Shown here in pieces: positions 6,033-47,893 of a stretch of DNA of 64,000 bases. The notes below the pieces were generated by a model. It worked only from the letters and a program-made list of their open reading frames with translations, did no database searches and was not told the DNA's origin. Within the stretch, counting starts at the first letter, position 1. Each line of letters begins with the position of its first letter. The translations under genes were made by a program, and so were the position numbers. Origin of the DNA: a phage; the NCBI GenBank assembly GCA_011939005.1, contig GCA_011939005.1_4858.1; one strand, written 5' to 3'.

Positions 6033-7292
6033 TTACTTAGACTTTTCGTACGCACCGATACCAGCGCTGATGTAGCCGTTAACGCCGGCGATCAGGTTTT
6101 TCTGGCCGGTTGCAACGCAACGTTCGGTCCAGGAGATGTACTGGTTCGCAACGGTGATTGCACGACGTGCAACACGGACGTTGGAAGTCAGTTCTGCGTT
6201 GTCGTCGATCTTCACGCCGTCGATACGTTTCAGCAGTTTCTCAATAGCCTGCTCGTAACGCTCTTGAGCCTGGTTATTTTTGTGGTATGCTTTCACGTTC
6301 TCTTCGACTGCTTTACCCAGCTGGTTGAAGAACGCAACCAGGGAAGACAGAGTCTGAGCAGACGGAGTAGAAACAGACTGCTCTACGCTACCTTCGGCGT
6401 CGATAACAGTGAAGGAAGCTTCCAGGTCATCCCCATTCACTTTCACTTCGGCTTTACCGATCTGGTTGCCCAGCAGCTGAACTTCGCCCGCTTTACCTGC
6501 GGTTGCTTTGTTAACCGCTGCTGCAAAGCCAGAGCCCAGTTTGCCGCCTTCAACTGCGCCAACCATAGCGGTAGCGGCTGCAACAACTGCATCCTGCTCA
6601 GCGTAAATGCTGCCGATAGAAGACATAACGCCTTTCAGGGTGTTGATGTCGTCACCGACGAACTTACCACCGGTGGTCAGGTTCTTAATGAACCCACCGC
6701 TAACGGTGTCTTTCTTCTGCTTGCCCAGGCCACGCAGAGCAGCGTCATATTTCTTAGCACGCGCCTGAATGGATTTACCCTGGTTGCTGAACTTCAGCCA
6801 ACGGTCTTTAACCTTACGGCCTTGTTCTTTCAGCCAGTCGTAGATGCGCTGCAGGAACGCTTTGATGTCGTCCCACAGGCTTTCACGAGCAACCTGGCGG
6901 CGCTTACGTGCACCGTAAGATTCCTGCGCGACGCTTACGCGGTGGTCGAATGCCCAACGTTTACGGATAGATTCCTGCGCAACGTCCAGCTGCTCAGCAG
7001 CTTCGTCAGGCATATCTTCTTCCACTTCCATTGGCTCTTCGCCATCTTCACCTTCACCGTCAGCGGCAGCTTCAGCAGCATCGACTGCTTCCAGCTGCGC
7101 GTCGGTTTCGTCGCCGTCTTCTGCCAGCACATCTGCTTCAGCATCCAGCTGGTCGATCGGTTTGGTGTCGTGCTCGATGTCAGCCAGAGTACCTTCTACG
7201 GACTCAGCCGGCAGCTCGATACCGTCCGGAACGACAGTACCTGTACCTTCGACAGATTCACGCGCGAGTTTACTTTTTACAAAGTTTGCCAT
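6033..7292 (-). CDS. acidic paralog A of tandem pair (possible virion or internal protein)
   Basis: N-terminus MANFVKSKLARESVE and C-terminus GYISAGIGAYEKSK shared with 7370..8647; Asp/Glu-rich middle. Confidence 0.6.
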   Translation of the reverse strand: MANFVKSKLARESVEGTGTVVPDGIELPAESVEGTLADIEHDTKPIDQLDAEADVLAEDGDETDAQLEAVDAAEAAADGEGEDGEEPMEVEEDMPDEAAEQLDVAQESIRKRWAFDHRVSVAQESYGARKRRQVARESLWDDIKAFLQRIYDWLKEQGRKVKDRWLKFSNQGKSIQARAKKYDAALRGLGKQKKDTVSGGFIKNLTTGGKFVGDDINTLKGVMSSIGSIYAEQDAVVAAATAMVGAVEGGKLGSGFAAAVNKATAGKAGEVQLLGNQIGKAEVKVNGDDLEASFTVIDAEGSVEQSVSTPSAQTLSSLVAFFNQLGKAVEENVKAYHKNNQAQERYEQAIEKLLKRIDGVKIDDNAELTSNVRVARRAITVANQYISWTERCVATGQKNLIAGVNGYISAGIGAYEKSK

Positions 7293-24228: not shown

Positions 24229-26199
24229 CTAGCCAATATCGGCGTATTGATCCAGCAAGAATTTCTGAATCTCGGACACCACTCGAGAGAGCACGAAAAA
24301 AACCCTGTCCGGTGAGATGGTAACAATACCACGATACAGACCGTCTTTCTCGCCGTGTGTTTTACCGCACGCCGGGCAGCGTTTACCCATGTAACCGAAT
24401 ACCGCTAAACGTGTACGTTCGTTGTATTCAGCAATTGCGTTTTCAAACTGACCAACGTAGATACGGTCGGAAGACAGCTCTTCCAGCATCTCAACGATTT
24501 TCGCTGTGTCGGTTTCAGTTTGTGGGATAACCTGCATTTCACCGTTTACTTCACGTTGCTCATTAACAGTGATAGATTTCACCATGTGAGCGTAGCGCGT
24601 TAAGCGACGGGCTTCCGCAGTTAAACGCATATGGGATTCACGTTCACGCTCGGTAGCAAATTCAGACAGCGCTGCCGTAGTTGACGCGTTAACGTCTTCA
24701 ATCCACTTCTCGGTGGAGTCAAAGAAGCTACCCAGGGTAGAACGGCCAAATTCAACACGCACGTCGTGGTATTCAAATACCGAGGATGGGTCAACCTGAT
24801 GCGCCGCGATATATTCGCGCTGTTCAGCAATAGAAATCACTGGACGCTCAGTACCGCGTTGACGTGCCCACAGTTGTTTCTGCAGGTCGCTAAACAGACC
24901 GGAACCGAAACGGATACAGCGTGCGATATTCAGCTTCACATCTTCCTGCTGGTTGCAGCCGTCTTCGCCACACATCAGCGTCCATGGAATACCAGACGGC
25001 CACTTCGCCTGCAACGGACCCAGAATAACCAGCCAGTAGTCAGCCAGATCAATGGTATCCAACAGCACAGTACGCAGATCGTTACCCGCACAATCGATGG
25101 TTGCTTCGGTAACAAACTGAAGTGCGAATTCAACCATGTGGCGCATGTACACGCCAGAAGACGACGACAGCATCAATCCGTAGGTCTGCATACCGATGGT
25201 CGCAGTTTCCAGCGTTAGACGCATGTCGAAGTCACAAAGGTCACGTTCATGCGGTGCGCGGAAGCCCACGTAGATACCTGTGGCCGGCAACCAAACCATG
25301 TTCGGAATACCCGACTTACGTACACGACGCAAAGCAGCCAGCGCGCCAGTGTGCATATTGTCACGCGGTGCAATAGCACCAGATGCCTTGCCGTCCGGCA
25401 ACATCACGCGCTGTTCCCAAGCGGTGTCACCACGGTCCAGTGCACCAGCGAATGCCGGTACGCCGTCCTGTAGACGTGGCGGTGTCATGTTCAAAGCGCG
25501 ATAGATGTCGTCGTAAACCTGTTGCTGTTCAGGGCTTTCGAATAGCAGCCGGCCGTCTTTCGGTGAACGTTTAATATTACCGAGGAACTTTTGCAGGGAG
25601 TCTGCAATGATGTTAGGGTCTTGTTTCAGACCAATCAACATCTTCGACTGTGTCAGAATACGATCGGCTTCATCTTCACCCATTTCGGCGGTTTCAGCTA
25701 AATGGGTATTACCGAAGTCAATCTCACGCATCTGTTGTTGTTCCGGAACCTTCGGTGCTGCATCTTCCATTTCTTTTACAGCCGGCTGTGCCGGTGCAAC
25801 CGCTTCCGGAGCTTTTGGCTGCGGAGCAGGTTCTACCGTAGGCGCTTTCTCTACTACCGGTTCCGGGGCACGATGTAGGTGCTCCTGCACCTGTTCAGCA
25901 AAAGTCTGAGGTGCCGGTGGTACAGGCGCAGCAGGTTCAGGCAACGCCTCTTCTACAAACGTCGGACGCTCAAGCTTAGGCTCCGGACGATGATAGTGTT
26001 GGTGATAAACTTCTTCTGCACGGGCAAAAGAAAAATCGGGGTTGGCTTGTTTAATAGCCATGATGATTGCATCCGAGGTCGCGTCATCAGGCACGGTCGG
26101 AAGAATCATCTCTTGTTGGGTAGCAGCCGCCACAGGGGCTGGCTGGTCGGGATTAGGGCGACGGGCATTACCCGGACGCTGATCTTGGATCTCAGACAT
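24229..26199 (-). CDS. hypothetical protein (656 aa) with Pro/Ala/Glu-rich N-terminal low-complexity region
   Basis: GAGGAA Shine-Dalgarno; PEP/APE-rich repeats near N-terminus; CPACG near C-terminus. Confidence 0.55.
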   Translation of the reverse strand: MSEIQDQRPGNARRPNPDQPAPVAAATQQEMILPTVPDDATSDAIIMAIKQANPDFSFARAEEVYHQHYHRPEPKLERPTFVEEALPEPAAPVPPAPQTFAEQVQEHLHRAPEPVVEKAPTVEPAPQPKAPEAVAPAQPAVKEMEDAAPKVPEQQQMREIDFGNTHLAETAEMGEDEADRILTQSKMLIGLKQDPNIIADSLQKFLGNIKRSPKDGRLLFESPEQQQVYDDIYRALNMTPPRLQDGVPAFAGALDRGDTAWEQRVMLPDGKASGAIAPRDNMHTGALAALRRVRKSGIPNMVWLPATGIYVGFRAPHERDLCDFDMRLTLETATIGMQTYGLMLSSSSGVYMRHMVEFALQFVTEATIDCAGNDLRTVLLDTIDLADYWLVILGPLQAKWPSGIPWTLMCGEDGCNQQEDVKLNIARCIRFGSGLFSDLQKQLWARQRGTERPVISIAEQREYIAAHQVDPSSVFEYHDVRVEFGRSTLGSFFDSTEKWIEDVNASTTAALSEFATERERESHMRLTAEARRLTRYAHMVKSITVNEQREVNGEMQVIPQTETDTAKIVEMLEELSSDRIYVGQFENAIAEYNERTRLAVFGYMGKRCPACGKTHGEKDGLYRGIVTISPDRVFFVLSRVVSEIQKFLLDQYADIG

Positions 26200-33305: not shown

Positions 33306-33629
33306 ATGCTAGATAAATTTGCTACCTTATCCGAAATAATACCTTCGCCTGATTCGACCAAGTATAAGGTGTTGCATGACTATACAGACTTCCTTCGCAA
33401 ACACCCAGATACTACAGAAGAAGTTGTTGACCCAAAATATGCCTACCCAGAGGTACACAGTTTCTACGCGTACTGTCGTCTCAAACAGTACGATAATAGT
33501 ATTATTTATCCGATGATGTTAATGAACGGAATTTCTACTCCGTTTGATTTCACGCCAGAGATAAGAACCTTATTGGTTCCTAGTGTCGGTGTGGTAAGTA
33601 ACATCTTATCGACTATCGTAGAATCTTGA
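33306..33629 (+). CDS. hypothetical protein (107 aa)
   Basis: Plus-strand ORF with AAGGAG Shine-Dalgarno, bounded by motif and terminator. Confidence 0.55.
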   Translation: MLDKFATLSEIIPSPDSTKYKVLHDYTDFLRKHPDTTEEVVDPKYAYPEVHSFYAYCRLKQYDNSIIYPMMLMNGISTPFDFTPEIRTLLVPSVGVVSNILSTIVES

Positions 33630-33662
33630 AAAAAAGAAGGGACGCCCAGTCCCTTCTTTCTA
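33628..33662. terminator. bidirectional intrinsic terminator
   Basis: A7 then GAAGGGAC-gccca-GTCCCTTC then T-rich, between convergent genes. Confidence 0.65.
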
Positions 33663-33666
33663 ACGC

Positions 33667-35034
33667 TTAACGTAAATTAGCTGATGAGAATGGTAGGTTG
33701 CCTAAACTGCTGCTACTTCCGCCACCTAAACCACCCAGACCACCTAACACGTCACTACTCCCTCCTAAGAGGTTGGTGCTACCGCCGCCCAACTGCGTGC
33801 TACCCCCCAAGAGATTATTACTACTTCCCAGCAAACCAGAACCCAGACCACTTTCTTTCGTCACCGCATTACCACGCAGCGCTTCACCGAGAGACAGTTC
33901 TTTAATTGTCCCTTTCGGTAAATGGCCGTTGTTCTCACGCAGCGCTTCCTGAATCTTCGGTGCTAACGCGTTGAAGCTATTAGCTGAAGACGCCTGTTGC
34001 GCTTTCTTCGCACGGAAATAGTTTACCGGATCGTTGAGATCAAGATTTTCCTGCGGAGCTTGTTGAGAAGCTAAAGCAACGACCGGCTTTGTGCCGGCAG
34101 GTGTACGCCCGATACGGAAATCCGTTGCGGTGGTGTCTGTTGCCTGATCGGTGCGTGGGCCGGTATTATACGGCAGAGTTTGGATAACGTTATCATAAAC
34201 GCTCATGTTATCCAGTTGGCCAATCCATTCTTCTTCTAACGGACGCAGTGGAGTGTGGTCACGCAGACCACGAACCACTTGATTGTAGTTGGTCACGTAT
34301 TGTGCCCAACCGCGTGCCAAAGAACCGAAGTACGGACGCGGATCGTTAGAACCCGTAACCGAAGGATACCAACCAAACACTGCAGTGAGCAGGTTAAAGA
34401 TAATGACCTTATCCTGCTTACGCTGGAGCTTGGCACCGAAGAATGTTGCCGTACCATCCAGTGACTCTTCTTCAAACATGTGTTTGTAGTTCGCCACGCG
34501 GATATATTTGATACCTTCAATGGTCATATCGCTGGAGATGAAGATACTGGTGATCTTTGTCTTTTTATCTTCTTCCAGCAAACCGTAAACGTAGTTCTTC
34601 ACTGCGTGCCAGCTCTGAACCAGTTTCTTATCCATCGTCGGATCTTTCAGGTCAGCACAAACCACATCGCTTAAAAACTTCTTGTACGATGCCAGACGGA
34701 TATTTTTTCCTTCGGCTGCTGTTTCCAAAATCGCATCGATTAACTCGAAGCTTTTCAGGAAGAGGTTCGCGCTGATGGCTTTCTTCAGGAAACGAATCGT
34801 TCCAGATTCGCCAGCCAGTACCGATTCACACAGTGGGTGGAACGCATGACATTCACTACCTTCGTCATCTTCCAACCCACGCTTAATCATCGCTGCAGTT
34901 GGAAGCACCAAGCGGCGCTTCACTTTGTTGTAGGTGAACATTGCCGGATGACCATCATCGATGGTCAACATGTCACCTTCGAATCCGTATCCGAGCGAGG
35001 TCAGAAACGAACGGTAGAATTCAATCAATTTCAT
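33667..35034 (-). CDS. hypothetical protein with Gly/Ser/Leu-rich C-terminal tail
   Basis: C-terminus GLGSGLLGSSNNLLGGSTQLGGGSTNLLGGSSDVLGGLGGLGGGSSS. Confidence 0.55.
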   Translation of the reverse strand: MKLIEFYRSFLTSLGYGFEGDMLTIDDGHPAMFTYNKVKRRLVLPTAAMIKRGLEDDEGSECHAFHPLCESVLAGESGTIRFLKKAISANLFLKSFELIDAILETAAEGKNIRLASYKKFLSDVVCADLKDPTMDKKLVQSWHAVKNYVYGLLEEDKKTKITSIFISSDMTIEGIKYIRVANYKHMFEEESLDGTATFFGAKLQRKQDKVIIFNLLTAVFGWYPSVTGSNDPRPYFGSLARGWAQYVTNYNQVVRGLRDHTPLRPLEEEWIGQLDNMSVYDNVIQTLPYNTGPRTDQATDTTATDFRIGRTPAGTKPVVALASQQAPQENLDLNDPVNYFRAKKAQQASSANSFNALAPKIQEALRENNGHLPKGTIKELSLGEALRGNAVTKESGLGSGLLGSSNNLLGGSTQLGGGSTNLLGGSSDVLGGLGGLGGGSSSSLGNLPFSSANLR

Positions 35035-35046
35035 GGTTAATAATCC

Positions 35047-36747
35047 TTAATCAATGAGACCGTTGCCGAGTCCGTTTCCGCCTATACCGCCTAAGCCACC
35101 ACCCAGGTCAAGACCTCCAAGAGGATCTAAGCCACCTGTGTTAGTTGGAATGTTAGATAGCATTCGACCCCGGCCTTGGCCTTTCTCGAATTCTGTATAA
35201 CCTTCTTCTACGGCTTTCAACAGCGTTGCGGTGTTCTGTGCCAGCTCACCAACGTATTTGAGATCGGTGGTGTTGCCGGTATGGAGACGGAATTGCATAA
35301 ACGACGCGTAGGTGTAATATTCCAGCGGTTCGTCGTCGACACGGATTTCAATACGAGTAACGGTCCCCAACAATGCGGTGACCAGCATGTGGCAGCGAAT
35401 ATGGTTATGTTTAGTAACCTGAACCATCGCTTCTTTCATGTTCTGCAAGAAACGACGACCTAACGCAGCAGGTAACTGATGGTGCGTGATGCTGCTGACT
35501 GAGTTAGGAATAACTTCCAGCGTAGGCTCTATCATGATATCTGTGTTGCGATTATCAAAGACAAAGCTCACTTCACCAATCAGGTTACGTGACATAATCG
35601 GCCCGATAGACATAGCCAGATCATACGCAACTAGACTACCCTGTGTGGAGAAGCCATTACGTCCAATCCAGTGGTCGGTTTGGTTAACCAGCCCTGCACC
35701 CAACCCACGGCGACTTGCCAGCGCCAGCGATTCACGGATACATTCATCCAACCGCATTGGGTTGACAATCGCATTACGCAAATCAGCCAAACGGAACGTC
35801 GCCTTACTGGTTGCTTTCCAACCGCCAGATACATCAGACATCCCGTTCTGGAGTGCTTGACGCATCGCAGCAATCAGTTCGTGGTTGCTGTAGTTACGGA
35901 TAACACCACGTTGCTTCAATTCAGATTCAACGCCGATGGAGTTATTACCTGCAAAGAAGCTTTCCACGCTACCGAGTTCGGTATCTACCCCAGAACTTGC
36001 CAGATACGCATTACTGATTGCAGATACGTAGTTTTCTGGACGCTGGAGTTGGGATACCATCAACTGTGGTGCAGAGCTACTGGTTGCGGATAGCACAGAG
36101 TCGCTCGTTGGGACGAACTTCTCACCGCTATTCATTTCAATACGTTTTACCATGTCCGCCGCTTTCGCGATCGAAATGATATCTACCGTACTTTCTGTTT
36201 GACCTTCAACAGACAACGCTTTCGATAAAACGTAGTTATCCAGTAGACGGAATGAGTCTGGGTTCAATGTTTTGCCGCCCAGGGCATCGTGTGTATACGT
36301 TGCCTGTAAGCCGTAGATGTCGTTAATGTACAACACCATATCGTCCGGCAGCAAGCTACCCAGGCTGGTTTCTGCCTGACTGGTATAACCGGAGACGATA
36401 TATTGCGTTTCCTGAGTGCGTGTTGCATTCAGAGGTTTGGCAATAAACACCGCCACGAAGTTAAAGATACCGGTATCACGTGATTCCCATTGGAACTGTA
36501 CAGGACGATTGTCATCATCGGACACGTTGATGAATGGACGCTCAAAACCATTCTGGGTGCCATCGAAGCCCACGATGGCAGATAATGCTTCTTGATACTG
36601 CTGTGTTCCCACAGCCTTTTCCCCGCCCAGTTCAACCGCTGCTGCTAAGTCATCCAGTGCACCCGTCGATGCGTTAAAGCCGATGCGGCGACGAACTTGC
36701 TCTGGAACATCGTAGACCGGATACATCAGTAGATTTACAAGCTGCAT
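35047..36747 (-). CDS. hypothetical protein with Gly-rich C-terminal tail
   Basis: C-terminus GGLDPLGGLDLGGGLGGIGGNGLGNGLID; adjacent to similar-tailed gene. Confidence 0.55.
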   Translation of the reverse strand: MQLVNLLMYPVYDVPEQVRRRIGFNASTGALDDLAAAVELGGEKAVGTQQYQEALSAIVGFDGTQNGFERPFINVSDDDNRPVQFQWESRDTGIFNFVAVFIAKPLNATRTQETQYIVSGYTSQAETSLGSLLPDDMVLYINDIYGLQATYTHDALGGKTLNPDSFRLLDNYVLSKALSVEGQTESTVDIISIAKAADMVKRIEMNSGEKFVPTSDSVLSATSSSAPQLMVSQLQRPENYVSAISNAYLASSGVDTELGSVESFFAGNNSIGVESELKQRGVIRNYSNHELIAAMRQALQNGMSDVSGGWKATSKATFRLADLRNAIVNPMRLDECIRESLALASRRGLGAGLVNQTDHWIGRNGFSTQGSLVAYDLAMSIGPIMSRNLIGEVSFVFDNRNTDIMIEPTLEVIPNSVSSITHHQLPAALGRRFLQNMKEAMVQVTKHNHIRCHMLVTALLGTVTRIEIRVDDEPLEYYTYASFMQFRLHTGNTTDLKYVGELAQNTATLLKAVEEGYTEFEKGQGRGRMLSNIPTNTGGLDPLGGLDLGGGLGGIGGNGLGNGLID

Positions 36748-36759
36748 TTTAAATACTCC

Positions 36760-38394
36760 TTAAGAATTAAACCATTCAACTTCTTCTAACTTGCGACGTG
36801 CATTCAACACCATAAACTCCGCCAGGCTATTGTGCAGTGACAAGTGAGGTATATAGTTTGGCTGATCCGTCTCACACTTCAGCAGCGCAGCTGCTTCTGG
36901 TGTAGCCCTGAGATGGAACAGATACGGGTTGATGTGATCCTTGTGTAACAAGGTCAGTGATTCCCGTGGTGTAGATTGCGGTTCGAGATTACGCGGGTTG
37001 CGGTACTCCTGAAGATAATATCTATCTAAATCTGCTTTGAGTTCAGATCGAATTGGATCGGCTGCATAACCGGCAGACATCTCAGAACGCACCATATTGC
37101 AACTTAACAGTTGCGCAACGTCATACATTCCATAATTGAGATAAGTTGCCTGCGCCAACGCCATACCGTAGCGAAACGCTTCTGGTCCACATTCAGTATA
37201 CGTCTTATAATGCGCGCTACGATGGAGTGCTAATGCGACTAACCATTCATGCAACGTATAGACAGGACCGTCATGTGTTGCCAGTTGCGAATCAATCAAT
37301 AACTTAACATCTGCTGGAGCGGCATTATCCAGACGCATTGTTTTCAAGAAAGAGCGGTATTCTTTAAATACGTACTCGGTACGGACGTATTCTTTCATCT
37401 GTGCAGGAGAACGTGCCTGCACCAAATCCATGGCGTTTATCTTACCCTTTTCGCCATTGAATACCACACTTTCCGGATGCGCTTTTAACAGCACCGGCTG
37501 GTTAGAGATTTTGTTTGCAAAACCTGTTTCAATCTCTTGTTTAACCAGAAAATACATGCTGGTGACGATATTGTTGTTAACCATGATTTCAATCGGTAAT
37601 TCACCACCGACTTCACGGACAGCCAACAATTTAATAATAGCATACGCCAGGATATAATCTTCCATCATATCCGTGCCATAGCCCCGCACCGTAGCCAATA
37701 CCGACAAACTGGTGCTGTTCGTACCTTTGTTTGCCAGTTCTTTTTCTACCTTTTCCATCACTGTCTGTAGGAACCCACGCAGTTTCGGAATAGCAGGTAA
37801 AGACATGACTTCTGTGTCTTGAAGCATCTCCAGACAGTATGTCAGATTGTACACCATTTTCCGATGTGTTTCGATTGGCAAGTTCTTACCTATCGGGAAC
37901 GTCCCCATGGTGAGGAACACCGGAATATACGGTTTAATCATCAGGACCAGTATCAACAACTCGTAATAGTCCGGACGAATGTACGTCATCGCTTCCGGAT
38001 AATTACTGTTCATTTCATCGTGCGTATCTTCCATGTTCTGCGGAATCCACAGCTTATCGATGGGATACAGCTTACGATACACTTCAGCCTTGTGGAACTT
38101 CGCGATCATCTGCACAATCTTCGGCATGTGCTTACGCTGCGTTTCCGTCGATTCGTTTGCCAGCTCGTCCAGCATCAGATACGCCATGAACAGTTCATCT
38201 TGTTCGTCTGGCGTTAAATAATCCCACACGCGTTGTAATTCCATGAAGAGAATGTTGTCGCGTGCAATCTGTTTACCTTTAACAGTGATGTAGTCGGGTG
38301 CGTTGTTATCCTTCCGATAACGTAAGCCAATAAATGTGACCTCTTGACCATGATGCTCGATTGTCATCCGGTCTTTAATCTTCATAATTTTCAT
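36760..38394 (-). CDS. hypothetical protein (544 aa)
   Basis: ORF; contains an internal copy of the promoter-like 22-mer at 37011-37034. Confidence 0.55.
   Translation of the reverse strand: MKIMKIKDRMTIEHHGQEVTFIGLRYRKDNNAPDYITVKGKQIARDNILFMELQRVWDYLTPDEQDELFMAYLMLDELANESTETQRKHMPKIVQMIAKFHKAEVYRKLYPIDKLWIPQNMEDTHDEMNSNYPEAMTYIRPDYYELLILVLMIKPYIPVFLTMGTFPIGKNLPIETHRKMVYNLTYCLEMLQDTEVMSLPAIPKLRGFLQTVMEKVEKELANKGTNSTSLSVLATVRGYGTDMMEDYILAYAIIKLLAVREVGGELPIEIMVNNNIVTSMYFLVKQEIETGFANKISNQPVLLKAHPESVVFNGEKGKINAMDLVQARSPAQMKEYVRTEYVFKEYRSFLKTMRLDNAAPADVKLLIDSQLATHDGPVYTLHEWLVALALHRSAHYKTYTECGPEAFRYGMALAQATYLNYGMYDVAQLLSCNMVRSEMSAGYAADPIRSELKADLDRYYLQEYRNPRNLEPQSTPRESLTLLHKDHINPYLFHLRATPEAAALLKCETDQPNYIPHLSLHNSLAEFMVLNARRKLEEVEWFNS
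37011..37034. promoter_or_regulatory. intragenic copy of promoter-like motif GAAGATAATATCTATCTAAATCT
   Basis: Near-identical to intergenic copy at 38428-38450; lies in codons DRYYLQEY of 36760..38394. Confidence 0.3.
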
Positions 38395-38529: not shown

Positions 38530-39228
38530 TTAGAGTAATTCGTCGTAAGAATCAGTGGTTGCTGGAGGTGCAGATTGTTGCTGCTGTTGATAACCGCCGC
38601 CGCTACGCTGACCACCACCCTGGCCACCGCCGTATCCGCCACGACCGAAGCTACCACCACCTTGCTGGAATTCACGCGGCTTATATTTCTCTTCCAGGTT
38701 CTGTAAGAACTTCTCGAAGTTAGTGATAAACGCACGTGCGCAGCGCTCAGCAAGTTCTAAATCAGAAACCTGCTGGCCGTCGCGGAAAATACGGAAACCT
38801 TTCGGGTAGGAGAAGTAGAACTTCTTCTGGCGGGCACCAACGCCCTGGATTTCACCGGCAATAGCGATGAACGGTACCAGGTTGTCTTCACGGCCAACAA
38901 TCAGACTAACGGGCGGTTTGTTGCCGTTTTCGTTAGTAAACTTCAGCATACTCTTTTCGCTCTTACGCAGACAATCCTGCAGAGCTTCGATAATGGTACG
39001 ACAAACCGTAATCGGTGCAGAGAAATAGAGACCTTCGCCCTTACCAAAAGAGTAGCTAAACTTCATAGTTTCAACATCACCGTTGAAATCATTCGGTTCA
39101 ATGTTGAGTTTACGCGTACGGTTTTGCTGATCCGGTTCGGTCTGCGGGTAAAGCCATTTGTCTTTGAAAATTTCTTGGTTAATCATCATTTCATCCTTTT
39201 CGGAAAAGCAGTCTAGTGGTTCACACAT
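38530..39228 (-). CDS. single-stranded DNA-binding protein-like
   Basis: Gly/Gln-rich linker GGGSFGRGGYGGGQGGGQRSGGGYQQQQQ and acidic C-terminal tip DSYDELL, the classic SSB tail design; true start may be the ATG at 39189. Confidence 0.45.
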   Translation of the reverse strand: MCEPLDCFSEKDEMMINQEIFKDKWLYPQTEPDQQNRTRKLNIEPNDFNGDVETMKFSYSFGKGEGLYFSAPITVCRTIIEALQDCLRKSEKSMLKFTNENGNKPPVSLIVGREDNLVPFIAIAGEIQGVGARQKKFYFSYPKGFRIFRDGQQVSDLELAERCARAFITNFEKFLQNLEEKYKPREFQQGGGSFGRGGYGGGQGGGQRSGGGYQQQQQSAPPATTDSYDELL

Positions 39229-43230: not shown

Positions 43231-44589
43231 CCTCCCTAACTTTCACTAGGGCACAGACCATACCTTAGCCATGAGCTTTCGCTTTTAGGCTCCTCCCCAC
43301 TTCGGTGCTATTCTAAGCACCTACGAGCATTTCAGCTCCGGTCGTTGAACGTTCCTCTTACGAGGCTTCGCTGCTGATTACCCATTGTTAAAACCCTTAG
43401 CAGTATTGTTTAGCATAGGTCATCTCATTACTTGTTTCCGACTTTCGTCTCCACATGGGCAAATGAGCTTTAGGGGTTCCCAGCAATTCAGGGAGATACA
43501 CATCAGAGGTTTCCCGTCTGATGGGGCAAGGCTATTCTGCTGTTAAATATTGAACTTCAAATTGTTTGTACTTTCCGGTTTGTGAGACTGCTTTGGCCAC
43601 AGTGTTTCTTTTCACACCAATCGCGTTTGAAAACTCTTGTAAAGAATTCCAAATGGTTTTGATGTTAGTGGTCGTATCAGTCACACGCACCATCGACGGT
43701 ACACGTTTTGGCATTTGTGATTGTGGTCTGGGTTTGCGGAGATCGATCATGTCAGTTATGGCAACATCGATATCCACCATGTACCACGCCTCATATCCAA
43801 ACTTAGTCAAATCGACGGAACCGCCGTTGAGATGGGAATAGATGAGGTGTGGTTTTATACCCACGTATTCGGCTGCTGCCGGTACAGACGAGAACAGGAA
43901 ATATGGTTCCTTACCAACTTTTCTGATGACCAGTCCTTTATTACCTGGTCCTGAGTTCTTACCAATAGAATTCTTGGTGAGAATCCAGTCGTCTTCCGGT
44001 ACCTTGACTTCAAACACATCATTTAGCGTGTATTGACGATTAAGCCCACGTGCGATCGAGCTTGAAACCAAGTGCCGATTAACGCCGATATACTCAGCCG
44101 CCTTAGTCATGCTACGGAACTGAACTATATCGCCGGTCTCGAGATTTCTGACATCGACAATAATGTTGTCAGTTCTTAGACCAGTATCGAAAGCATGATT
44201 AACATTTTCCTTTCGATAACACCACTCAAGGTTTACCACAGATGGATTACTCTTAACACCATCACGATGGTTAACCTCGTCACCACATTTATCCAGGAAC
44301 ACAGTCGCAACAATTCGATGTAAATGGGTTTCGCCTTTACAACCGCGCACTCCCAGGTATCCACTTTTGAGAATGAAGACTGGTAGCGGCGTGACCATAC
44401 CTTTTACTTTACAGTCGCCCAATGCATCAACAAAGAGATCACGATAGACTGGGTGTCTGTAATACCCCTTAAAAACATACGAGGGCTCTAAATCATCGCG
44501 TAGTTTCCTACTCAACTTTTCAATAATCACAATTTATTCCCTATTACCAGTCACCGACTAAGAATAAGGAATAGCAGAATAACACTTTT
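43231..44589 (-). mobile_element. putative group I intron (phage IA-like) carrying an HNH homing endonuclease ORF; boundaries approximate
   Basis: Splits a beta-prime-like coding sequence; ~300 nt non-coding RNA after the endonuclease ORF contains GUUCAACGACC (R-like) and UAUGGUCUGUGC (S-like) elements whose GACC/GGUC can pair as P7; candidate 5' exon ends in U and intron ends in G. Confidence 0.55.
43532..44530 (-). CDS. HNH homing endonuclease with NUMOD/IENR-type DNA-binding repeats
   Basis: HLHRIVA...VNHRDGVKSNPSVVNLEWCYRKENVNHA is an HNH motif; three helix-turn-helix-like repeats AAEYIGVNRHLV, AAEYVGIKPHLI, FSNAIGVKRNTV. Confidence 0.8.
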   Translation of the reverse strand: MIIEKLSRKLRDDLEPSYVFKGYYRHPVYRDLFVDALGDCKVKGMVTPLPVFILKSGYLGVRGCKGETHLHRIVATVFLDKCGDEVNHRDGVKSNPSVVNLEWCYRKENVNHAFDTGLRTDNIIVDVRNLETGDIVQFRSMTKAAEYIGVNRHLVSSSIARGLNRQYTLNDVFEVKVPEDDWILTKNSIGKNSGPGNKGLVIRKVGKEPYFLFSSVPAAAEYVGIKPHLIYSHLNGGSVDLTKFGYEAWYMVDIDVAITDMIDLRKPRPQSQMPKRVPSMVRVTDTTTNIKTIWNSLQEFSNAIGVKRNTVAKAVSQTGKYKQFEVQYLTAE

Positions 44590-46039: not shown

Positions 46040-47893
46040 TTACAGTTTGAAGTTGCTCAGAGTCACGCCCAGACCGAAATCGGAACCGCTTGCAGACAGG
46101 CCGTTGCCAGACAGCGTGAAGTCTTCCCCACCGTTGTTGAAGAACAGAGAGGTCGCCATCGTGTTGTAGGCATTTACACCAGTCATAGACCAGGTGCAGT
46201 TGTTACGGACGAAGTCCAGCAGGCATTTACCGAAGATCGGGTTGATAGCCATATCCAGAGATTCACCGGTAGCTTGCGGTGCTTTGGATGCGAACAGAGA
46301 AGCGGCCAGTTTCAGCATGTAGATACGCTGTTGACGCTCGTTCAGTTCACGGTGGCTGTAGGACTGTGCGTTCAGGTAGCTATAGACGTCGTTCGCGTTA
46401 TCACCCAGTTTGGTAACAACGGAAATCAGGTCCATATCCTGGAAGCTACGTTTCTGTGCAGTACCGGTGTAAACACCGGAAACAGTCGGTACGGCTGCTT
46501 TCACGATGTGGCTGCAATGGATGGTACCATTGAAGGCATCGCCCAGCTGTGCTTTCAGTGCAGAAGCAAATACTGCAGTGAAGCTGGTCGCTGCAACAAC
46601 TTCGCCGTTCTGATCACGCGGGGACATGGAATTCAGAATAGCGAGCAGCTGTTTCAGAGAGTTGTCGTAACCGACCGCAATTTCAGACAGCAAAGTAGAC
46701 AGACCACCCAGGCCGTTACCGGCACGATGGCTAACTACCAGTGCTGCTTCACGCGGTGCGAACATATCCAGGCAACCTTCGATAGCTTCACGGCTACCGT
46801 CGATTTTGGATACATCAGGACGAGCGTCAGCACCCCAGGACAGGTATTCTGCCACACGGGAGAACTTGCGATCTTGTTTGTTCAGACGTTTCACAAACAG
46901 GTCACGCCAGCCACCGATTGCCGCGATTTCTGCAAATGCAGCCAGCAGCAGCAGTTGACGTTCATACGGTGCCATTGCACCTTCAGTTTGAGAATCGATC
47001 AGACTTACTACGATTTCAGCCTGCAGCTGTTTCAGGTCGTAGACGCCGTTAACGACAGGCTTCTGACCGGTGAAACGCATATTGACGAAACCGGTACCGG
47101 ATACACGCGGATACACCTGTACCTGATTGGTGTCCAGCAGAGTCGGAGTGGCGTCGGTTACGTTGCTTGGGCTGTGCTCAACGGTGATTGCGAAATCAGC
47201 ACGCTGTGCGTGGCCGTTAGCATCAACAACCGCACCATCTTCCAGCGGCATTACTGCGGCCTGATAACGGTCATGCTTACGCAGGTTCAGCGTACCCAGG
47301 TAGCCTGCGATACGACCGAAGATGCCCATCATCATCTGACCCATCAGAGTACGTGCCCACTCAGCATCCAGAACTTTACCCAGGTCTGGTACGGAGTTGA
47401 TGATCATGAAGTTCGCATTGGTCAGACCATGCGCTTCCATGATGTTTTTCTGTACTACTGCCAGCACGTCTTTGTTGAACAGTTCAGTGATGGTGTAGTA
47501 GTCTTCCTGGCCGTTGTTGGTAGTTTCTTTCAGACGCAGAGACTGACCGCGTTCAAAGAAGATGATACCGTACAGCCAGTGGCCCTGCCATTGGCCTGCG
47601 ACGTACGCCGCGGAACCCATTTCGTTACCCACGCCGACGATGGTGCCCCAGCGGAATGCGTTGAGGTATTCGTTGCTTTTCTTCAGCTCATCCAGGAGGT
47701 TGGTGAAGTGCATTGCATAGGTGCTGATGTTGCGGATGCCAAATGCGTTATCGAATTGGCTGACAGTAGAAGTACCCGGCACAGCAGTTTGCACTTTTAC
47801 AGTCTCGTTGCCCAGACCGCCCAGTGGTGCGGTGTCTTGAGTCTGAGTGTTGTTCTGCTGAGCGTTGTTGTTAGAGTCAACGATTTTTACCAT
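46040..47893 (-). CDS. abundant 617-aa protein: candidate phage-nucleus shell (chimallin-like) or major structural protein
   Basis: AAGGAA Shine-Dalgarno, promoter-like motif 45 nt upstream, strong terminator downstream, sits beside the beta-prime-like gene; assignment is by context only. Confidence 0.4.
   Translation of the reverse strand: MVKIVDSNNNAQQNNTQTQDTAPLGGLGNETVKVQTAVPGTSTVSQFDNAFGIRNISTYAMHFTNLLDELKKSNEYLNAFRWGTIVGVGNEMGSAAYVAGQWQGHWLYGIIFFERGQSLRLKETTNNGQEDYYTITELFNKDVLAVVQKNIMEAHGLTNANFMIINSVPDLGKVLDAEWARTLMGQMMMGIFGRIAGYLGTLNLRKHDRYQAAVMPLEDGAVVDANGHAQRADFAITVEHSPSNVTDATPTLLDTNQVQVYPRVSGTGFVNMRFTGQKPVVNGVYDLKQLQAEIVVSLIDSQTEGAMAPYERQLLLLAAFAEIAAIGGWRDLFVKRLNKQDRKFSRVAEYLSWGADARPDVSKIDGSREAIEGCLDMFAPREAALVVSHRAGNGLGGLSTLLSEIAVGYDNSLKQLLAILNSMSPRDQNGEVVAATSFTAVFASALKAQLGDAFNGTIHCSHIVKAAVPTVSGVYTGTAQKRSFQDMDLISVVTKLGDNANDVYSYLNAQSYSHRELNERQQRIYMLKLAASLFASKAPQATGESLDMAINPIFGKCLLDFVRNNCTWSMTGVNAYNTMATSLFFNNGGEDFTLSGNGLSASGSDFGLGVTLSNFKL

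What the first reader, a model, noticed from the sequence alone, without database searches (positions are those of the whole stretch)
33667..36747. Two adjacent proteins ending in long Gly-rich low-complexity tails
33667..35034 ends in about 50 residues of LLGG/GGS repeats and 35047..36747 ends in GGLDPLGGLDLGGGLGGIGG. Such flexible tails on neighbouring genes suggest a shared assembly or phase-separation role, or fibre-like structural proteins.
Basis: seen in the sequence. Interest (0 to 1): 0.4.

Follow-up and report, generated by a model that had tools for sequence, protein, structure and literature searches.

The report
Co-evolving sticky tails on phage-nucleus import proteins
The two genes encode this jumbo phage's versions of the "phage nucleus" protein importer (PicA/Imp1) and its little-studied shell-associated neighbour, and their floppy glycine-rich ends change in step with each other across related phages, which points to a shared and so far undescribed role at the nuclear shell.

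Summary
On the minus strand, the 455-aa protein (35034..33667) ends in 60 residues that are 77% G/L/S. The 566-aa protein (36747..35047) ends in GGLDPLGGLDLGGGLGGIGGNGLGNGLID.

The window is an SPN3US-like nucleus-forming jumbo phage. The 566-aa protein is the ortholog of phiKZ gp69 (PicA/Imp1), the essential nuclear protein importer. The 455-aa protein is the ortholog of phiKZ gp70/PhiPA3 gp64, a nuclear-shell protein of unknown function. Neither is a fibre.

Both have folded domains with no known structural relatives, followed by tails predicted to be disordered. A charge-poor, low-complexity tail is present in all 148 diverse gp70-family representatives I examined. Its chemistry varies: LG repeats here, FG, MFG/LFG or NPF repeats elsewhere, some resembling GLFG nucleoporins.

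In SPN3US-like lineages the PicA tail carries the same motif type as the gp70 tail of the same phage. The dominant hydrophobic residue agrees in all 14 lineages sampled first. There were at least two independent concerted L/F switches, and five of six further lineages matched the pattern.

Best reading: the tails are co-evolving multivalent interaction modules that tie both proteins into one shell-associated import assembly. The mechanism is inferred, not shown.

The parts
33667..35034 (-). CDS of the 455-aa protein (SPN3US gp32 / RefSeq ACQ60_gp234). It is the ortholog of phiKZ gp70 and PhiPA3 gp64, a nuclear-shell-associated protein of unknown function.
   Evidence: ORF. 99% DNA identity to SPN3US-like phages. 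tblastn hits PhiPA3 gp064 and phiKZ gp070 at E 8e-13 to 7e-7. Clade-versus-clade hhalign gives 99.8%, E 6e-28. Matches phrog_3520.
34156..35034 (-). Folded N-terminal domain of the gp70-family protein (residues 1-293).
33850..34155 (-). Linker of the gp70-family protein (residues 294-395). It is poorly conserved but carries short clade-conserved motifs (DDPxxFF, SLxEAxGG) and helices of moderate confidence.
   Evidence: Alignments. AF2 pLDDT is 34-73, with helices at 336-352, 359-367 and 382-386.
33670..33849 (-). Low-complexity LLGG/GGS tail of the gp70-family protein (residues 396-455), ending in ...LGNLPFSSANLR.
   Evidence: Composition and entropy rank. pLDDT about 32. No DNA-level tandem array.
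35047..36747 (-). CDS of the 566-aa protein (SPN3US gp31 / RefSeq ACQ60_gp235). It is the ortholog of phiKZ gp69, known as PicA or Imp1, the phage-nucleus protein import factor.
   Evidence: ORF. hhalign of the SPN3US-clade profile against the phiKZ/PhiPA3/Goslar/RAY-clade profile gives 97.9%, E 5e-13, over 434 columns spanning residues 15-514 (repeated). Gene order is strictly conserved. Matches phrog_3141.
35155..36747 (-). Folded part of PicA/Imp1 (residues 1-531).
35050..35154 (-). Disordered tail of PicA/Imp1 (residues 532-566). The Gly/Leu-rich core is residues 537-566, window 35050-35139.
   Evidence: pLDDT about 34. Composition.
33629..33657 (-). Intrinsic-terminator-like hairpin with a T-run, immediately after the stop codon of the 455-aa gene. 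This is the likely end of the transcription unit.
   Evidence: Read directly from the sequence (AGAAGGGAC-TGGGC-GTCCCTTCT-TTTTTT). The consensus scan did not list it. The gaps between the 544-, 566- and 455-aa genes are 12 nt each.
36760..38394 (-). Context: ortholog of phiKZ gp68, a non-virion RNA polymerase subunit or sigma-like factor.
   Evidence: hhalign 99.9%, E 4.5e-36. Conserved gene order.
38530..39228 (-). Context: ortholog of phiKZ gp67, known as ChmC or Imp6. It is an RNA-binding shell protein and a direct partner of Imp1. It has its own G/Q-rich, RGG-like tail and an acidic tip (…DSYDELL).
   Evidence: hhalign 98.7%, E 3e-16. Tails listed. Function taken from PMC11077065 and bioRxiv 10.1101/2024.03.27.586873.
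46040..47893 (-). Context: the chimallin (ChmA) homolog, the major nuclear-shell protein. Its presence shows that the window comes from a nucleus-forming phage.
   Evidence: 99.5% identical to SPN3US ACQ60_gp244. PMC9365700 names that protein as the SPN3US chimallin homolog. Sequence similarity to phiKZ gp54 was not detectable here.

Best explanation
SHOWN HERE

The window comes from an SPN3US-like member of the nucleus-forming jumbo phages (Chimalliviridae). The two genes are the last two of a tightly packed minus-strand unit, in the order ChmC/Imp6, gp68-like nvRNAP subunit, PicA/Imp1, gp70-like. This block is conserved in every chimallivirus I examined.

The 566-aa protein is the PicA/Imp1 ortholog. 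The 455-aa protein is the phiKZ gp70/PhiPA3 gp64 ortholog. Each has a novel folded domain followed by a C-terminal tail that is predicted to be disordered, is charge-poor and has low sequence complexity.

The tails have a sticker-and-spacer design. Hydrophobic residues (Leu in this phage) are embedded in Gly/Ser/Asn spacers. In SPN3US-like lineages, the sticker and even the exact short motif change together in the two proteins.

FROM THE LITERATURE

- PicA/Imp1 is essential.
- It sits in puncta on the chimallin shell.
- It licenses selective protein import.
- PhiPA3 gp64 also localises to the shell.

INFERRED

The tails are interaction modules under shared selection. Their repeated hydrophobic-glycine motifs make many weak contacts. 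The partner could be a common one, such as the chimallin lattice or another hub component, or the two tails could bind each other.

Such contacts would recruit and hold PicA and the gp70-like protein in the same shell-associated import assembly. The Gly-rich composition in this phage is one lineage-specific flavour of that module.
For: Identity of the proteins:
- 98.5-99% DNA identity to SPN3US-like phages; the genes are SPN3US gp31 and gp32.
- homology to phiKZ gp69 and gp70 (hhalign 97.8-99.8%).
- identical gene order in 17 phages.
- ChmA is encoded in the window.

Disorder and novel folds.

Tail conservation:
- All 67 non-identical gp70-family proteins from loci and the homolog search have such tails. 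In the last 70 aa, G is 22% versus 6% in the N-domain, and charged residues are 7% versus 26%.
- All 148 representatives at under 50% mutual identity have a 98-269 aa extension after the folded domain. 82% of these have at most 10% charged residues in the last 70 aa, and 126 of 148 end in a hydrophobic residue.

Co-variation of the PicA and gp70 tails within a phage:
- Centred-composition cosine is 0.50 for the same phage versus -0.02 for different phages (permutation p <= 5e-5). Within the SPN3US-like clade it is 0.40 (p <= 1e-4).
- Controls are not significant: the ChmC tail and the folded domains in both sets, and the gp70 linker within the SPN3US-like clade only.
- The dominant hydrophobic residue agrees in 14 of 14 SPN3US-like lineages. 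An F/F lineage is nested inside an L/L clade, and there is a separate F/F clade.
- Shared motifs include GNSLLD and FG repeats.
- A predict-then-check test on new lineages held up: LFG with MFG/LFG, NPFG with NNPFG x8, and TLG with TLG.

Not a slippage artefact.

Literature:
- PicA/Imp1 function and puncta: PMC11087766, bioRxiv 10.1101/2024.03.27.586873, PMC12571901.
- gp61/63/64 at the shell and absent from virion proteomes: PMC10643120.
- The low-complexity tail of ChmC drives condensates: PMC11077065.
Against: - No experiment addresses these tails.
- phiKZ Imp1 did not co-purify with gp70 when the two were co-expressed in E. coli, whereas gp67 did (bioRxiv 10.1101/2024.03.27.586873). A stable direct PicA-gp70 complex is therefore unlikely, at least in phiKZ.
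- The PicA tail is essentially absent in Goslar, RAY and Eowyn (3-9 residues), so it cannot be a universal requirement for PicA function.
- Co-variation is weaker in the Pseudomonas-phage clade (cosine 0.26; shared 3-mers not significant).
- In the all-phage set the gp70 linker also co-varies with the PicA tail (0.25, p <= 5e-5), so part of the overall signal may reflect clade-level composition.
- The permutation tests do not correct for phylogeny. The number of truly independent concerted changes is about 8, not 28.
- The tails are short (30-70 aa) compared with known cohesive domains.
Confidence: 0.5

Rival explanations
1. Leash and plug. The low-complexity region is only a flexible spacer. 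The functional element is one or a few short docking peptides, either near the C-terminus (NPF-like motifs) or at its hydrophobic end. These would insert into a groove of a partner, much as chimallin's own NTS and CTS segments dock on neighbouring protomers, or would thread through a lattice pore. Co-variation would arise because both proteins plug into the same socket.
For: - 126 of 148 gp70-family representatives end in a hydrophobic residue.
- In the Pseudomonas-phage clade both PicA and gp70 end in ...G-L-L/I. The gp70 tails there also carry conserved LPW and NP[FY][AM]xA motifs.
- ChmA of the SPN3US clade ends in ...[FY]K[LF]. PicA of Wellington, the Derbicusvirus group and the P0086, P0087, P0088 and P0093 lineages ends in the same type of tip.
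- Chimallin is known to assemble through tail docking (PMC9365700).
Against: - In the window's own lineage the tips differ: PicA ...GLID, gp70 ...ANLR, ChmA ...NFKL.
- What co-varies in SPN3US-like phages is the repeated internal motif (LG, FG, NPFG), not only the tip.
- In the Pseudomonas clade ChmA ends ...SFY or ...TWY, unlike the ...GLL of PicA and gp70.
- This reading is not exclusive of the best explanation.
Confidence: 0.25
2. Nucleoporin-like selective phase. Many copies of the PicA and gp70 tails line or cap a portal in the chimallin shell. There they form a cohesive, charge-poor meshwork, analogous to FG-repeat domains, which excludes inert proteins and admits licensed cargo.
For: - The tails have a sticker-and-spacer design with very low charge.
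- Some family members carry true GLFG-type repeats with N/Q-rich spacers: P0086, P0087, P0099, L020/P0005.
- PicA forms a single punctum where stalled cargo accumulates (PMC11087766, PMC12908238).
Against: - The tails are 5-10 times shorter than FG domains.
- The window's tail has Leu where FG domains have Phe.
- The copy number at the shell is unknown.
- Goslar PicA has no tail.
- No homology to nucleoporins.
- No transport-receptor analogue is known. Published genetics indicates that cargo selectivity maps to the folded surface of PicA.
Confidence: 0.12
3. Neutral low-complexity drift. The tails are dispensable, fast-evolving appendages generated by slippage and compositional bias. The similarity between the two proteins reflects shared mutational bias in each genome.
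For: - The sequences are not alignable across clades.
- The PicA tail has been lost in some lineages.
- Low-complexity regions commonly evolve fast.
Against: - No DNA-level repeat, and codons are mixed.
- An extension is present in 148 of 148 diverse representatives, with consistent charge depletion and a hydrophobic last residue in most.
- The ChmC tail of the same genomes does not co-vary, nor do the folded domains.
- Exact motifs are shared, for example NPFG and GNSLLD.
Confidence: 0.1
4. Fibre-like or other virion structural proteins whose Gly-rich ends form extended fibres.
For: The only support is the Gly-rich composition.
Against: - There is no G-X-Y or other fibre periodicity in the sequence.
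- There are no Pfam structural or RTX matches.
- The models show globular folds plus disorder.
- PMC10643120 reports that the orthologs localise to the nuclear shell and were absent from published virion proteomes.
- The genes lie in the nvRNAP/replication block, not in a structural module.
Confidence: 0.02

Closest known systems
PicA / Imp1 (phiKZ gp69, PhiPA3 gp63, Goslar gp174), the protein importer of chimalliviruses
   Same: Homologous over about 434 aligned columns spanning residues 15-514 (hhalign 97.9%). It occupies the same position between the gp68-like and gp70-like genes and is co-encoded with chimallin. Like the published PicA, its fold has no known structural relatives.
   Different: Sequence identity to phiKZ gp69 is only about 19% over the aligned columns. 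The characterised proteins lack a Gly/Leu tail: phiKZ has a 48-aa Q/P/N-rich tail and Goslar has almost none. I found no mention of the tails in the papers I could read.
phiKZ gp70 / PhiPA3 gp64, a nuclear-shell-associated protein of unknown function
   Same: Homologous N-terminal domain (hhalign 99.8%), same gene position, and the same architecture of folded domain, linker and low-complexity tail.
   Different: The tail chemistry differs. phiKZ and PhiPA3 have Met/Gln/Pro-rich tails with an NPF-like motif and a ...GLL end. The window has LLGG/GGS repeats with an LPF near the end.
The N/G-rich C-terminal tail of ChmC / Imp6 (PhiPA3 gp61)
   Same: It is encoded in the same gene block and is a shell-associated protein with a folded domain and a disordered low-complexity tail. 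Experiments show its tail is required for condensate formation (PMC11077065).
   Different: The ChmC tail is G/N/Q/R/Y-rich with an acidic tip, and its condensates are stimulated by RNA. It has almost no aliphatic stickers and does not co-vary with the PicA or gp70 tails.
FG-repeat domains of nucleoporins (GLFG type, for example Nup98/Nup100/Nup116)
   Same: Both are disordered and charge-depleted, with hydrophobic stickers next to Gly set in S/N/Q/T/G spacers. Both sit on proteins at the gateway of a nucleus-like compartment. Some family members have literal SLFG or SMFG repeats with N/Q-rich spacers.
   Different: There is no homology. The window's tail has no FG and only one Phe in 60 residues. 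The tails are 30-70 aa rather than hundreds. No pore scaffold or transport receptor is known in the phage system, and self-association has not been tested.
Chimallin (ChmA) NTS/CTS tail docking
   Same: Both involve flexible termini carrying short hydrophobic segments on phage-nucleus proteins. ChmA of this clade ends in ...SDFGLGVTLSNFKL, which has a similar flavour, and PicA in several lineages shares the ...[FY]K[LF] tip.
   Different: The window's own PicA and gp70 tips do not match its ChmA tip. The Pseudomonas clade shows no resemblance either. Docking of these tails on ChmA is untested.

Membership tests
PicA/Imp1 family (566-aa protein) | Sequence homology to phiKZ gp69 / PhiPA3 gp63 across the folded protein | tested here: met
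   hhalign between clade profiles gives 97.9%, E 5e-13, 434 columns; repeated at 97.8%. Matches phrog_3141 at E 7e-157.
PicA/Imp1 family (566-aa protein) | Located in the conserved block gp67-gp68-gp69-gp70 next to nvRNAP beta/beta' genes, and co-encoded with chimallin | tested here: met
   Same gene order in 17 annotated phages and in every other locus that reached far enough upstream. ChmA homolog at window 46040..47893.
PicA/Imp1 family (566-aa protein) | Localises to puncta on the nuclear shell and is required for selective protein import | not testable with these tools
   Known only for phiKZ, PhiPA3 and Goslar (PMC11087766; bioRxiv 10.1101/2024.03.27.586873).
phiKZ gp70 / PhiPA3 gp64 family (455-aa protein) | Homology of the N-terminal domain, including the conserved HP.[CSA]E and IP.LP.N.G motifs | tested here: met
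   tblastn E 8e-13 to PhiPA3. hhalign 99.8%. Invariant H66, P67, E70, N290, G292.
phiKZ gp70 / PhiPA3 gp64 family (455-aa protein) | Nuclear-shell localisation during infection | not testable with these tools
   Shown for PhiPA3 gp64 only (PMC10643120).
FG-nucleoporin-like cohesive repeat domain | Intrinsically disordered, charge-depleted domain | tested here: met
   pLDDT about 32-34. In the last 70 aa of the window's gp70-like protein, 7% of residues are charged. Across the family, charged residues are 7% in the tail versus 26% in the N-domain.
FG-nucleoporin-like cohesive repeat domain | Multiple Phe-Gly motifs (FG, GLFG, FxFG) separated by polar spacers | tested here: not met
   The window's tails have Leu-Gly, not Phe-Gly; the gp70-like tail has a single F. 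The feature is met only in relatives (L020/P0005, P0086, P0087, P0099).
FG-nucleoporin-like cohesive repeat domain | Long domain with tens of motifs | tested here: not met
   The tails are 30 and 60 residues long, with about 7-14 hydrophobic stickers.
FG-nucleoporin-like cohesive repeat domain | Self-cohesion or phase formation, and passage of transport receptors | not testable with these tools
   Requires purified protein.
FG-nucleoporin-like cohesive repeat domain | Sequence-family match to nucleoporin FG repeats | tested here: not met
   No Pfam family matches either protein at E <= 0.1.
Fibre, collagen-like or RTX-type Gly-rich structural repeats | Regular G-X-Y triplets or GGXGXD nonapeptides, or Pfam collagen/HemolysinCabind matches | tested here: not met
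   The sequences show no such periodicity. No Pfam hits. AF2 predicts no ordered structure in the tails.
SSB-type tail (Gly-rich linker plus acidic-aromatic tip) | C-terminal acidic tip such as DDDIPF after a G/Q/N-rich linker | tested here: not met
   The 455-aa protein ends ...SSANLR and the 566-aa protein ends ...GNGLID. The neighbouring ChmC ortholog, by contrast, does have such a tip (…DSYDELL; orthologs …SDDDIPM, …FADDLPF).

The most novel reading that the evidence does not exclude
The phage nucleus may have independently evolved a nucleoporin-like gate. On this reading, the co-evolving hydrophobic-glycine tails of PicA/Imp1 and the gp70-family protein form a cohesive, charge-free meshwork at the import portal of the chimallin shell. 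The tails are LG repeats in this phage and true GLFG-, MFG- or NPF-type repeats in relatives. The meshwork would contribute to the permeability barrier, and licensed cargo would have to partition through it.
Probability: 0.12. Interest if true: 0.9.

Novelty: new variant of a known kind. Interest (0 to 1): 0.58.

Why it matters
How folded proteins are selectively moved across the phage nucleus's protein lattice is a central open question in jumbo-phage biology. PicA/Imp1 is the known key factor, but its partners and mechanism are unclear. The gene next to it (gp70/gp64) has no assigned function.

If the two proteins really carry tails that evolve in lock-step, three things follow.
- The gp70 family becomes a candidate part of the import hub.
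- The co-variation identifies a discrete, mutable module for experiments, such as tail deletion, Leu-to-Ser changes, and swaps between L-type and F-type tails.
- It raises a testable possibility that a viral nucleus uses the same physical principle as eukaryotic nuclear pores, namely disordered hydrophobic-glycine repeats.

If the tails turn out to be dispensable, the finding reduces to correct annotation of two core chimallivirus genes in SPN3US-like phages.

Tried and rejected
- Pfam scan of both proteins and four neighbours gave no family, so no RTX, collagen or nucleoporin repeat match.
- PDB sequence search found nothing for the 566-aa protein. For the 455-aa protein it gave only weak NrdR hits (E 0.1-0.23), which I judged to be chance.
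- BFVD returned only uncharacterised orthologs. The afdb50 library was unavailable.
- TRF found no real tandem repeat, which rejects DNA slippage as the origin.
- I considered whether the tails mimic ChmA's C-terminal segments. The tips are shared only in some lineages and not in this phage or the Pseudomonas clade, so I kept this as a rival and side note.
- I considered a C-terminal degron, given the ...GLL ends. This is inconsistent with the SPN3US-clade ends (…LID, …NLR, …FKW), so I did not pursue it.
- I considered RNA-driven condensation as for ChmC. These tails lack the Arg and aromatic content of ChmC's tail and do not co-vary with it.
- ChmA homology to phiKZ gp54 could not be shown by sequence. 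I relied on the RefSeq locus tag named in PMC9365700.
- The search for related loci failed with the 17-sequence alignment because no stretch was conserved enough. I used clade-specific alignments instead.
- The third word-indexed homolog search added only 5 proteins.
- The 2026 preprint on Imp7 could not be read.
- No paper in the library links the phage nucleus to nucleoporin-like repeats or links Imp1 to disorder. The journal version of the Imp1 paper was not available to check.


Full report
**1. The observation**

Both ORFs exist at the reported coordinates, but they are read on the minus strand. The tails are therefore encoded at the low-coordinate ends.

The 455-aa protein (35034..33667) ends in GLGSGLLGSSNNLLGGSTQLGGGSTNLLGGSSDVLGGLGGLGGGSSSSLGNLPFSSANLR. 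That is 19 G, 14 L and 13 S in 60 residues. The 566-aa protein (36747..35047) ends in TGGLDPLGGLDLGGGLGGIGGNGLGNGLID.

I compared these tails with all 16,604 50-residue windows in 59 putative genes of the window. Mean entropy is 3.85 bits (sd 0.16). The first tail is the single lowest-entropy segment (2.27 bits). The tail of the 566-aa protein ranks fifth by gene, and the tail of the neighbouring 232-aa protein ranks fourth.

The repeats are degenerate at the DNA level. TRF finds only a 9-nt unit repeated 2.6 times, and the Gly and Leu codons are mixed. The pattern is therefore kept at the protein level and is not a recent slippage product.

**2. What the genes are**

The region is 98.5-99.2% identical to SPN3US-like Salmonella and E. 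coli jumbo phages (genus Seoulvirus). The two genes are SPN3US gp31 and gp32, both annotated as hypothetical.

The gene order around them is:
- SbcD-like nuclease
- gp28
- a 232-aa protein
- a 544-aa protein
- the 566-aa protein
- the 455-aa protein
- a small gene on the opposite strand
- RNA polymerase beta and beta' genes

This is the same order as phiKZ gp65 to gp74. I found it in 17 annotated chimalliviruses and in 36 further loci from IMG/VR.

Profile-profile comparison supports orthology for all four genes of the block. I aligned the SPN3US-like clade against the clade containing phiKZ, PhiPA3, 201phi2-1, Goslar and RAY.

| Gene | hhalign probability | E-value |
|---|---|---|
| gp67 | 98.7% | 3e-16 |
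| gp68 | 99.9% | 4.5e-36 |
| gp69 | 97.8-97.9% | about 5e-13, 434 columns |
| gp70 | 99.8% | 6e-28 |

tblastn links the 455-aa protein directly to PhiPA3 gp064 (E 8e-13) and phiKZ gp070.

The window also encodes the chimallin homolog at 46040..47893. This protein is RefSeq ACQ60_gp244, which PMC9365700 names as the SPN3US chimallin.

The literature assigns the following roles:
- phiKZ gp69 is PicA/Imp1. It is essential, sits on the shell in puncta, and licenses selective protein import (PMC11087766; bioRxiv 10.1101/2024.03.27.586873; PMC12571901).
- gp67 is ChmC/Imp6, an RNA-binding protein that binds Imp1 directly (PMC11077065).
- PhiPA3 gp64, the gp70 ortholog, localises to the nuclear shell and was absent from earlier virion proteomes. 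Its function is unknown (PMC10643120).

The two genes in the finding are therefore the PicA/Imp1 ortholog and the gp70/gp64 ortholog.

They are the last genes of a tightly packed unit with 12-nt gaps between genes. A hairpin followed by a T-run lies directly after the 455-aa gene, at 33657..33629.

**3. Anatomy**

AlphaFold2 models were built from alignments of 41 and 30 homologs.

| Protein | Folded part | Tail |
|---|---|---|
| 455 aa | residues 1-290, pLDDT mostly above 90 | residues 387-455, pLDDT about 32 |
| 566 aa | residues 1-531, pTM 0.76 | residues 532-566, pLDDT about 34 |

The 455-aa protein also has a middle section (residues 294-386) with three helices of moderate confidence.

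**4. Are the tails conserved?**

For the gp70 family the answer is yes as a feature and no as a sequence. All 67 non-identical proteins from the loci and the homolog search have a low-complexity tail. In the last 70 residues, G is 22% versus 6% in the N-domain. Charged residues are 7% versus 26%. G/S/N/Q/T/P/A together make up 67% versus 35%.

A profile search of 1.84 billion cluster representatives found 1,746 clusters at E <= 1e-3 and 673 at E <= 1e-30. I examined 148 of the best 150. All have a 98-269 aa extension after the folded domain. In 82% of them, at most 10% of the last 70 residues are charged. 126 of 148 end in a hydrophobic residue.

The chemistry of the tail differs by lineage:

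| Tail type | Lineages |
|---|---|
| LLGG/GGS or GGLGGG | SPN3US, SPAsTU, Asesino, Wellington |
| GNSLL-type | Machinavirus |
| NNPF repeats | Derbicusvirus, P0088, P0093 |
| Met/Gln/Pro-rich, with conserved LPW, NP[FY][AM]xA and ...GLL motifs | Pseudomonas phages |
| True FG, SLFG or SMFG repeats with N/Q-rich spacers | L020/P0005, P0086, P0087, P0099 |

These are listed.

For PicA the result is mixed. The tail is 36-73 aa in the SPN3US-like and Pseudomonas-phage clades. It is nearly absent, at 3-9 aa, in Goslar, RAY and Eowyn.

**5. The main new result: the two tails co-vary**

Within a phage, the PicA tail resembles the gp70 tail.

- *Composition test.* Across 28 non-redundant phages, the centred-composition cosine is 0.50 for same-phage pairs and -0.02 for different-phage pairs (permutation p <= 5e-5). 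Within the SPN3US-like clade alone it is 0.40 (p <= 1e-4).
- *Controls.* The ChmC tail and the folded domains show no such relation in either set. The gp70 linker shows none within the SPN3US-like clade, but in the all-phage set it does correlate with the PicA tail (0.25, p <= 5e-5).
- *Dominant hydrophobic residue.* It agrees in 14 of 14 SPN3US-like lineages.
- *Independent switches.* On a tree built from the folded domains, an F/F lineage (L020) is nested inside an L/L clade, and Derbicusvirus is a separate F/F clade. That makes at least two independent concerted switches.
- *Shared motifs.* GNSLLD or GNSILD occurs in both proteins of Machinavirus-like phages. FG repeats occur in both proteins of the L020/P0005-P0047 lineage.

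I then used the pattern as a prediction. For six further lineages chosen by their gp70 tail alone, I looked up the adjacent PicA.

| Lineage | gp70 tail | PicA tail |
|---|---|---|
| P0086 | SMFG/SLFG repeats | ...DNLFG..DSLFGGG..GDLFGGGNNFKF |
| P0087 | SMFGAPQQ repeats | ...SGLFGGGTDNLFS... |
| P0088 | NNPFG repeated 8 times | ...GGNPFGTNGGGNNNPFGGLKF |
| P0082 | TLG repeats | ...VLG..ALGATLGGG... |
| P0093 | F-type | F-type |
| P0083 | LFG repeats | GFTL motifs (partial match) |

Three caveats apply. The permutation tests ignore phylogeny, so the effective number of independent events is about eight. The relation is weaker in the Pseudomonas clade, where the shared feature is mainly the ...GLL end. 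And the linker result above means that part of the all-phage signal may reflect clade-level composition.

**6. Mechanism**

The following is shown. Two adjacent shell-associated proteins carry disordered, charge-poor tails with a hydrophobic-sticker and Gly/polar-spacer design. The tails persist across the family, and their motif type changes together in the two proteins.

The following is inferred. The tails are under shared selection because they engage the same partner or each other through many weak hydrophobic-glycine contacts. This would recruit or hold PicA and the gp70-like protein in one import assembly on the chimallin shell. I put this at about 0.5.

A more specific variant is a flexible leash carrying one or a few docking peptides. 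The logic would be the same as chimallin's own NTS and CTS docking (PMC9365700). Three observations support it:
- the hydrophobic C-termini
- the conserved NPF-like motif
- the ...[FY]K[LF] tips shared by ChmA of this clade and PicA of several lineages

The window's own tips do not match each other, however.

The boldest reading is a nucleoporin-like cohesive barrier. The GLFG-like relatives fit it. The short length of the tails, the Leu chemistry in this phage and the tail-less Goslar PicA argue against it as a general mechanism.

Two observations count against any stable PicA-gp70 complex or universal tail function. phiKZ Imp1 did not co-purify with gp70 in E. coli (bioRxiv 10.1101/2024.03.27.586873), and some lineages lack the PicA tail.

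Neutral drift is disfavoured for three reasons: the extension is universal, the controls listed in section 5 show no co-variation, and exact motifs are shared. The fibre or structural-protein reading is rejected.

**7. Comparison with what is known, and novelty**

As genes, these are new members of two known chimallivirus core families. As a feature, three things appear not to have been described:
- the Gly/Leu tail on PicA
- the family-wide sticker-and-spacer tail on gp70
- their co-variation

This statement rests on the papers I could search or read. No paper in the library combines the phage nucleus with nucleoporin-like repeats in a relevant way, and none combines Imp1 with disorder. Recent reviews do not mention gp70/gp64 or disorder. 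The journal version of the Imp1 paper and a 2026 preprint were not readable. I therefore rate the finding as a new variant of a known kind.

**8. Verdict**

Interest is 0.58. The identity of the genes is ordinary for this phage family. The co-evolving tails next to the nuclear importer are a concrete and testable lead into how the phage nucleus imports proteins.

Noticed in passing
window 38530..39228 (-): The 232-aa ChmC/Imp6 ortholog (SPN3US gp29, reported as essential and non-virion in PMC5105663) has a G/Q-rich, RGG-like tail that ends in an acidic-aromatic tip (…DSYDELL). Orthologs end in …SDDDIPM, …FADDLPF and …FDDEIPNF, which closely resemble the C-terminal tip of bacterial SSB (DDDIPF). 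The ChmC paper describes an 'electronegative cluster' but, in the passages I read, does not draw an SSB-tip analogy.
   Followed up: partly
window 43234..44530 (-): A group I intron (Rfam RF00028, 47 bits, E 4e-10, just below the gathering score) and an HNH/NUMOD1 homing-endonuclease ORF (332 aa) lie inside the nvRNAP beta' N-terminal subunit gene. The interval between the chimallin gene and the gp24 homolog is about 1.4 kb longer than in SPN3US, so this phage carries an insertion that SPN3US lacks. This is reminiscent of the PhiPA3 gp65-66 intron.
   Followed up: partly
window 46040..47893 (-), and loci L059-L066: The chimallin homolog of this clade has G/S/N-rich termini with F/L stickers: N-terminus …APLGGLGNE…, C-terminus …SGNGLSASGSDFGLGVTLSNFKL. 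PicA of Wellington, the Derbicusvirus group and several metagenomic lineages ends in the same …[FY]K[LF] tip. This may mean they mimic chimallin's CTS2 docking peptide. The window's own PicA (…GLID) does not.
   Followed up: partly
window 33306..33629 (+): A small gene on the opposite strand (107 aa, phrog_3455) sits between the gp70-like gene and the nvRNAP beta gene. It occupies this position in 16 of the 17 annotated phages I examined (for example Goslar_00172, 201phi2-1 gp127, RAY_246); the phiKZ annotation shows no such gene. It converges on the same terminator hairpin as the 455-aa gene. Its function is unknown.
   Followed up: no
gp70-family tails in loci L003, L005, L014, L036-L053 and proteins P0089-P0109: In Pseudomonas-phage-like members the otherwise unalignable tail contains three conserved short motifs in fixed order: [LP][PS]W, then NP[FY][AM]xA, then a …G-L-[LIV] C-terminus. 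The NPF element is amplified 4-8 times in Derbicusvirus-like and P0088/P0093 lineages. The window has a single LPF ten residues from the end.
   Followed up: partly
window 6033..7292 (-) and 24229..26199 (-): There are two other strongly biased segments in the window. One is an acidic A/E/D-rich stretch (AEADVLAEDGDETDAQLEAVDAAEAAADGEGEDGEEPMEVEEDMPDEAAE) in a 419-aa protein. The other is a P/A/E-rich stretch in a 656-aa protein.
   Followed up: no
phage records LR535901-LR535913 (SPFM1, 5-10, 12, 14, 15): In several SPFM phage records the homologs of both genes match only in 2-8 short pieces at 50-80% identity, although sister SPFM records are 99-100% identical. The deposited proteins (for example P0028, P0029, P0070) look frameshifted or scrambled, which suggests sequence-quality problems in those records.
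   Followed up: no
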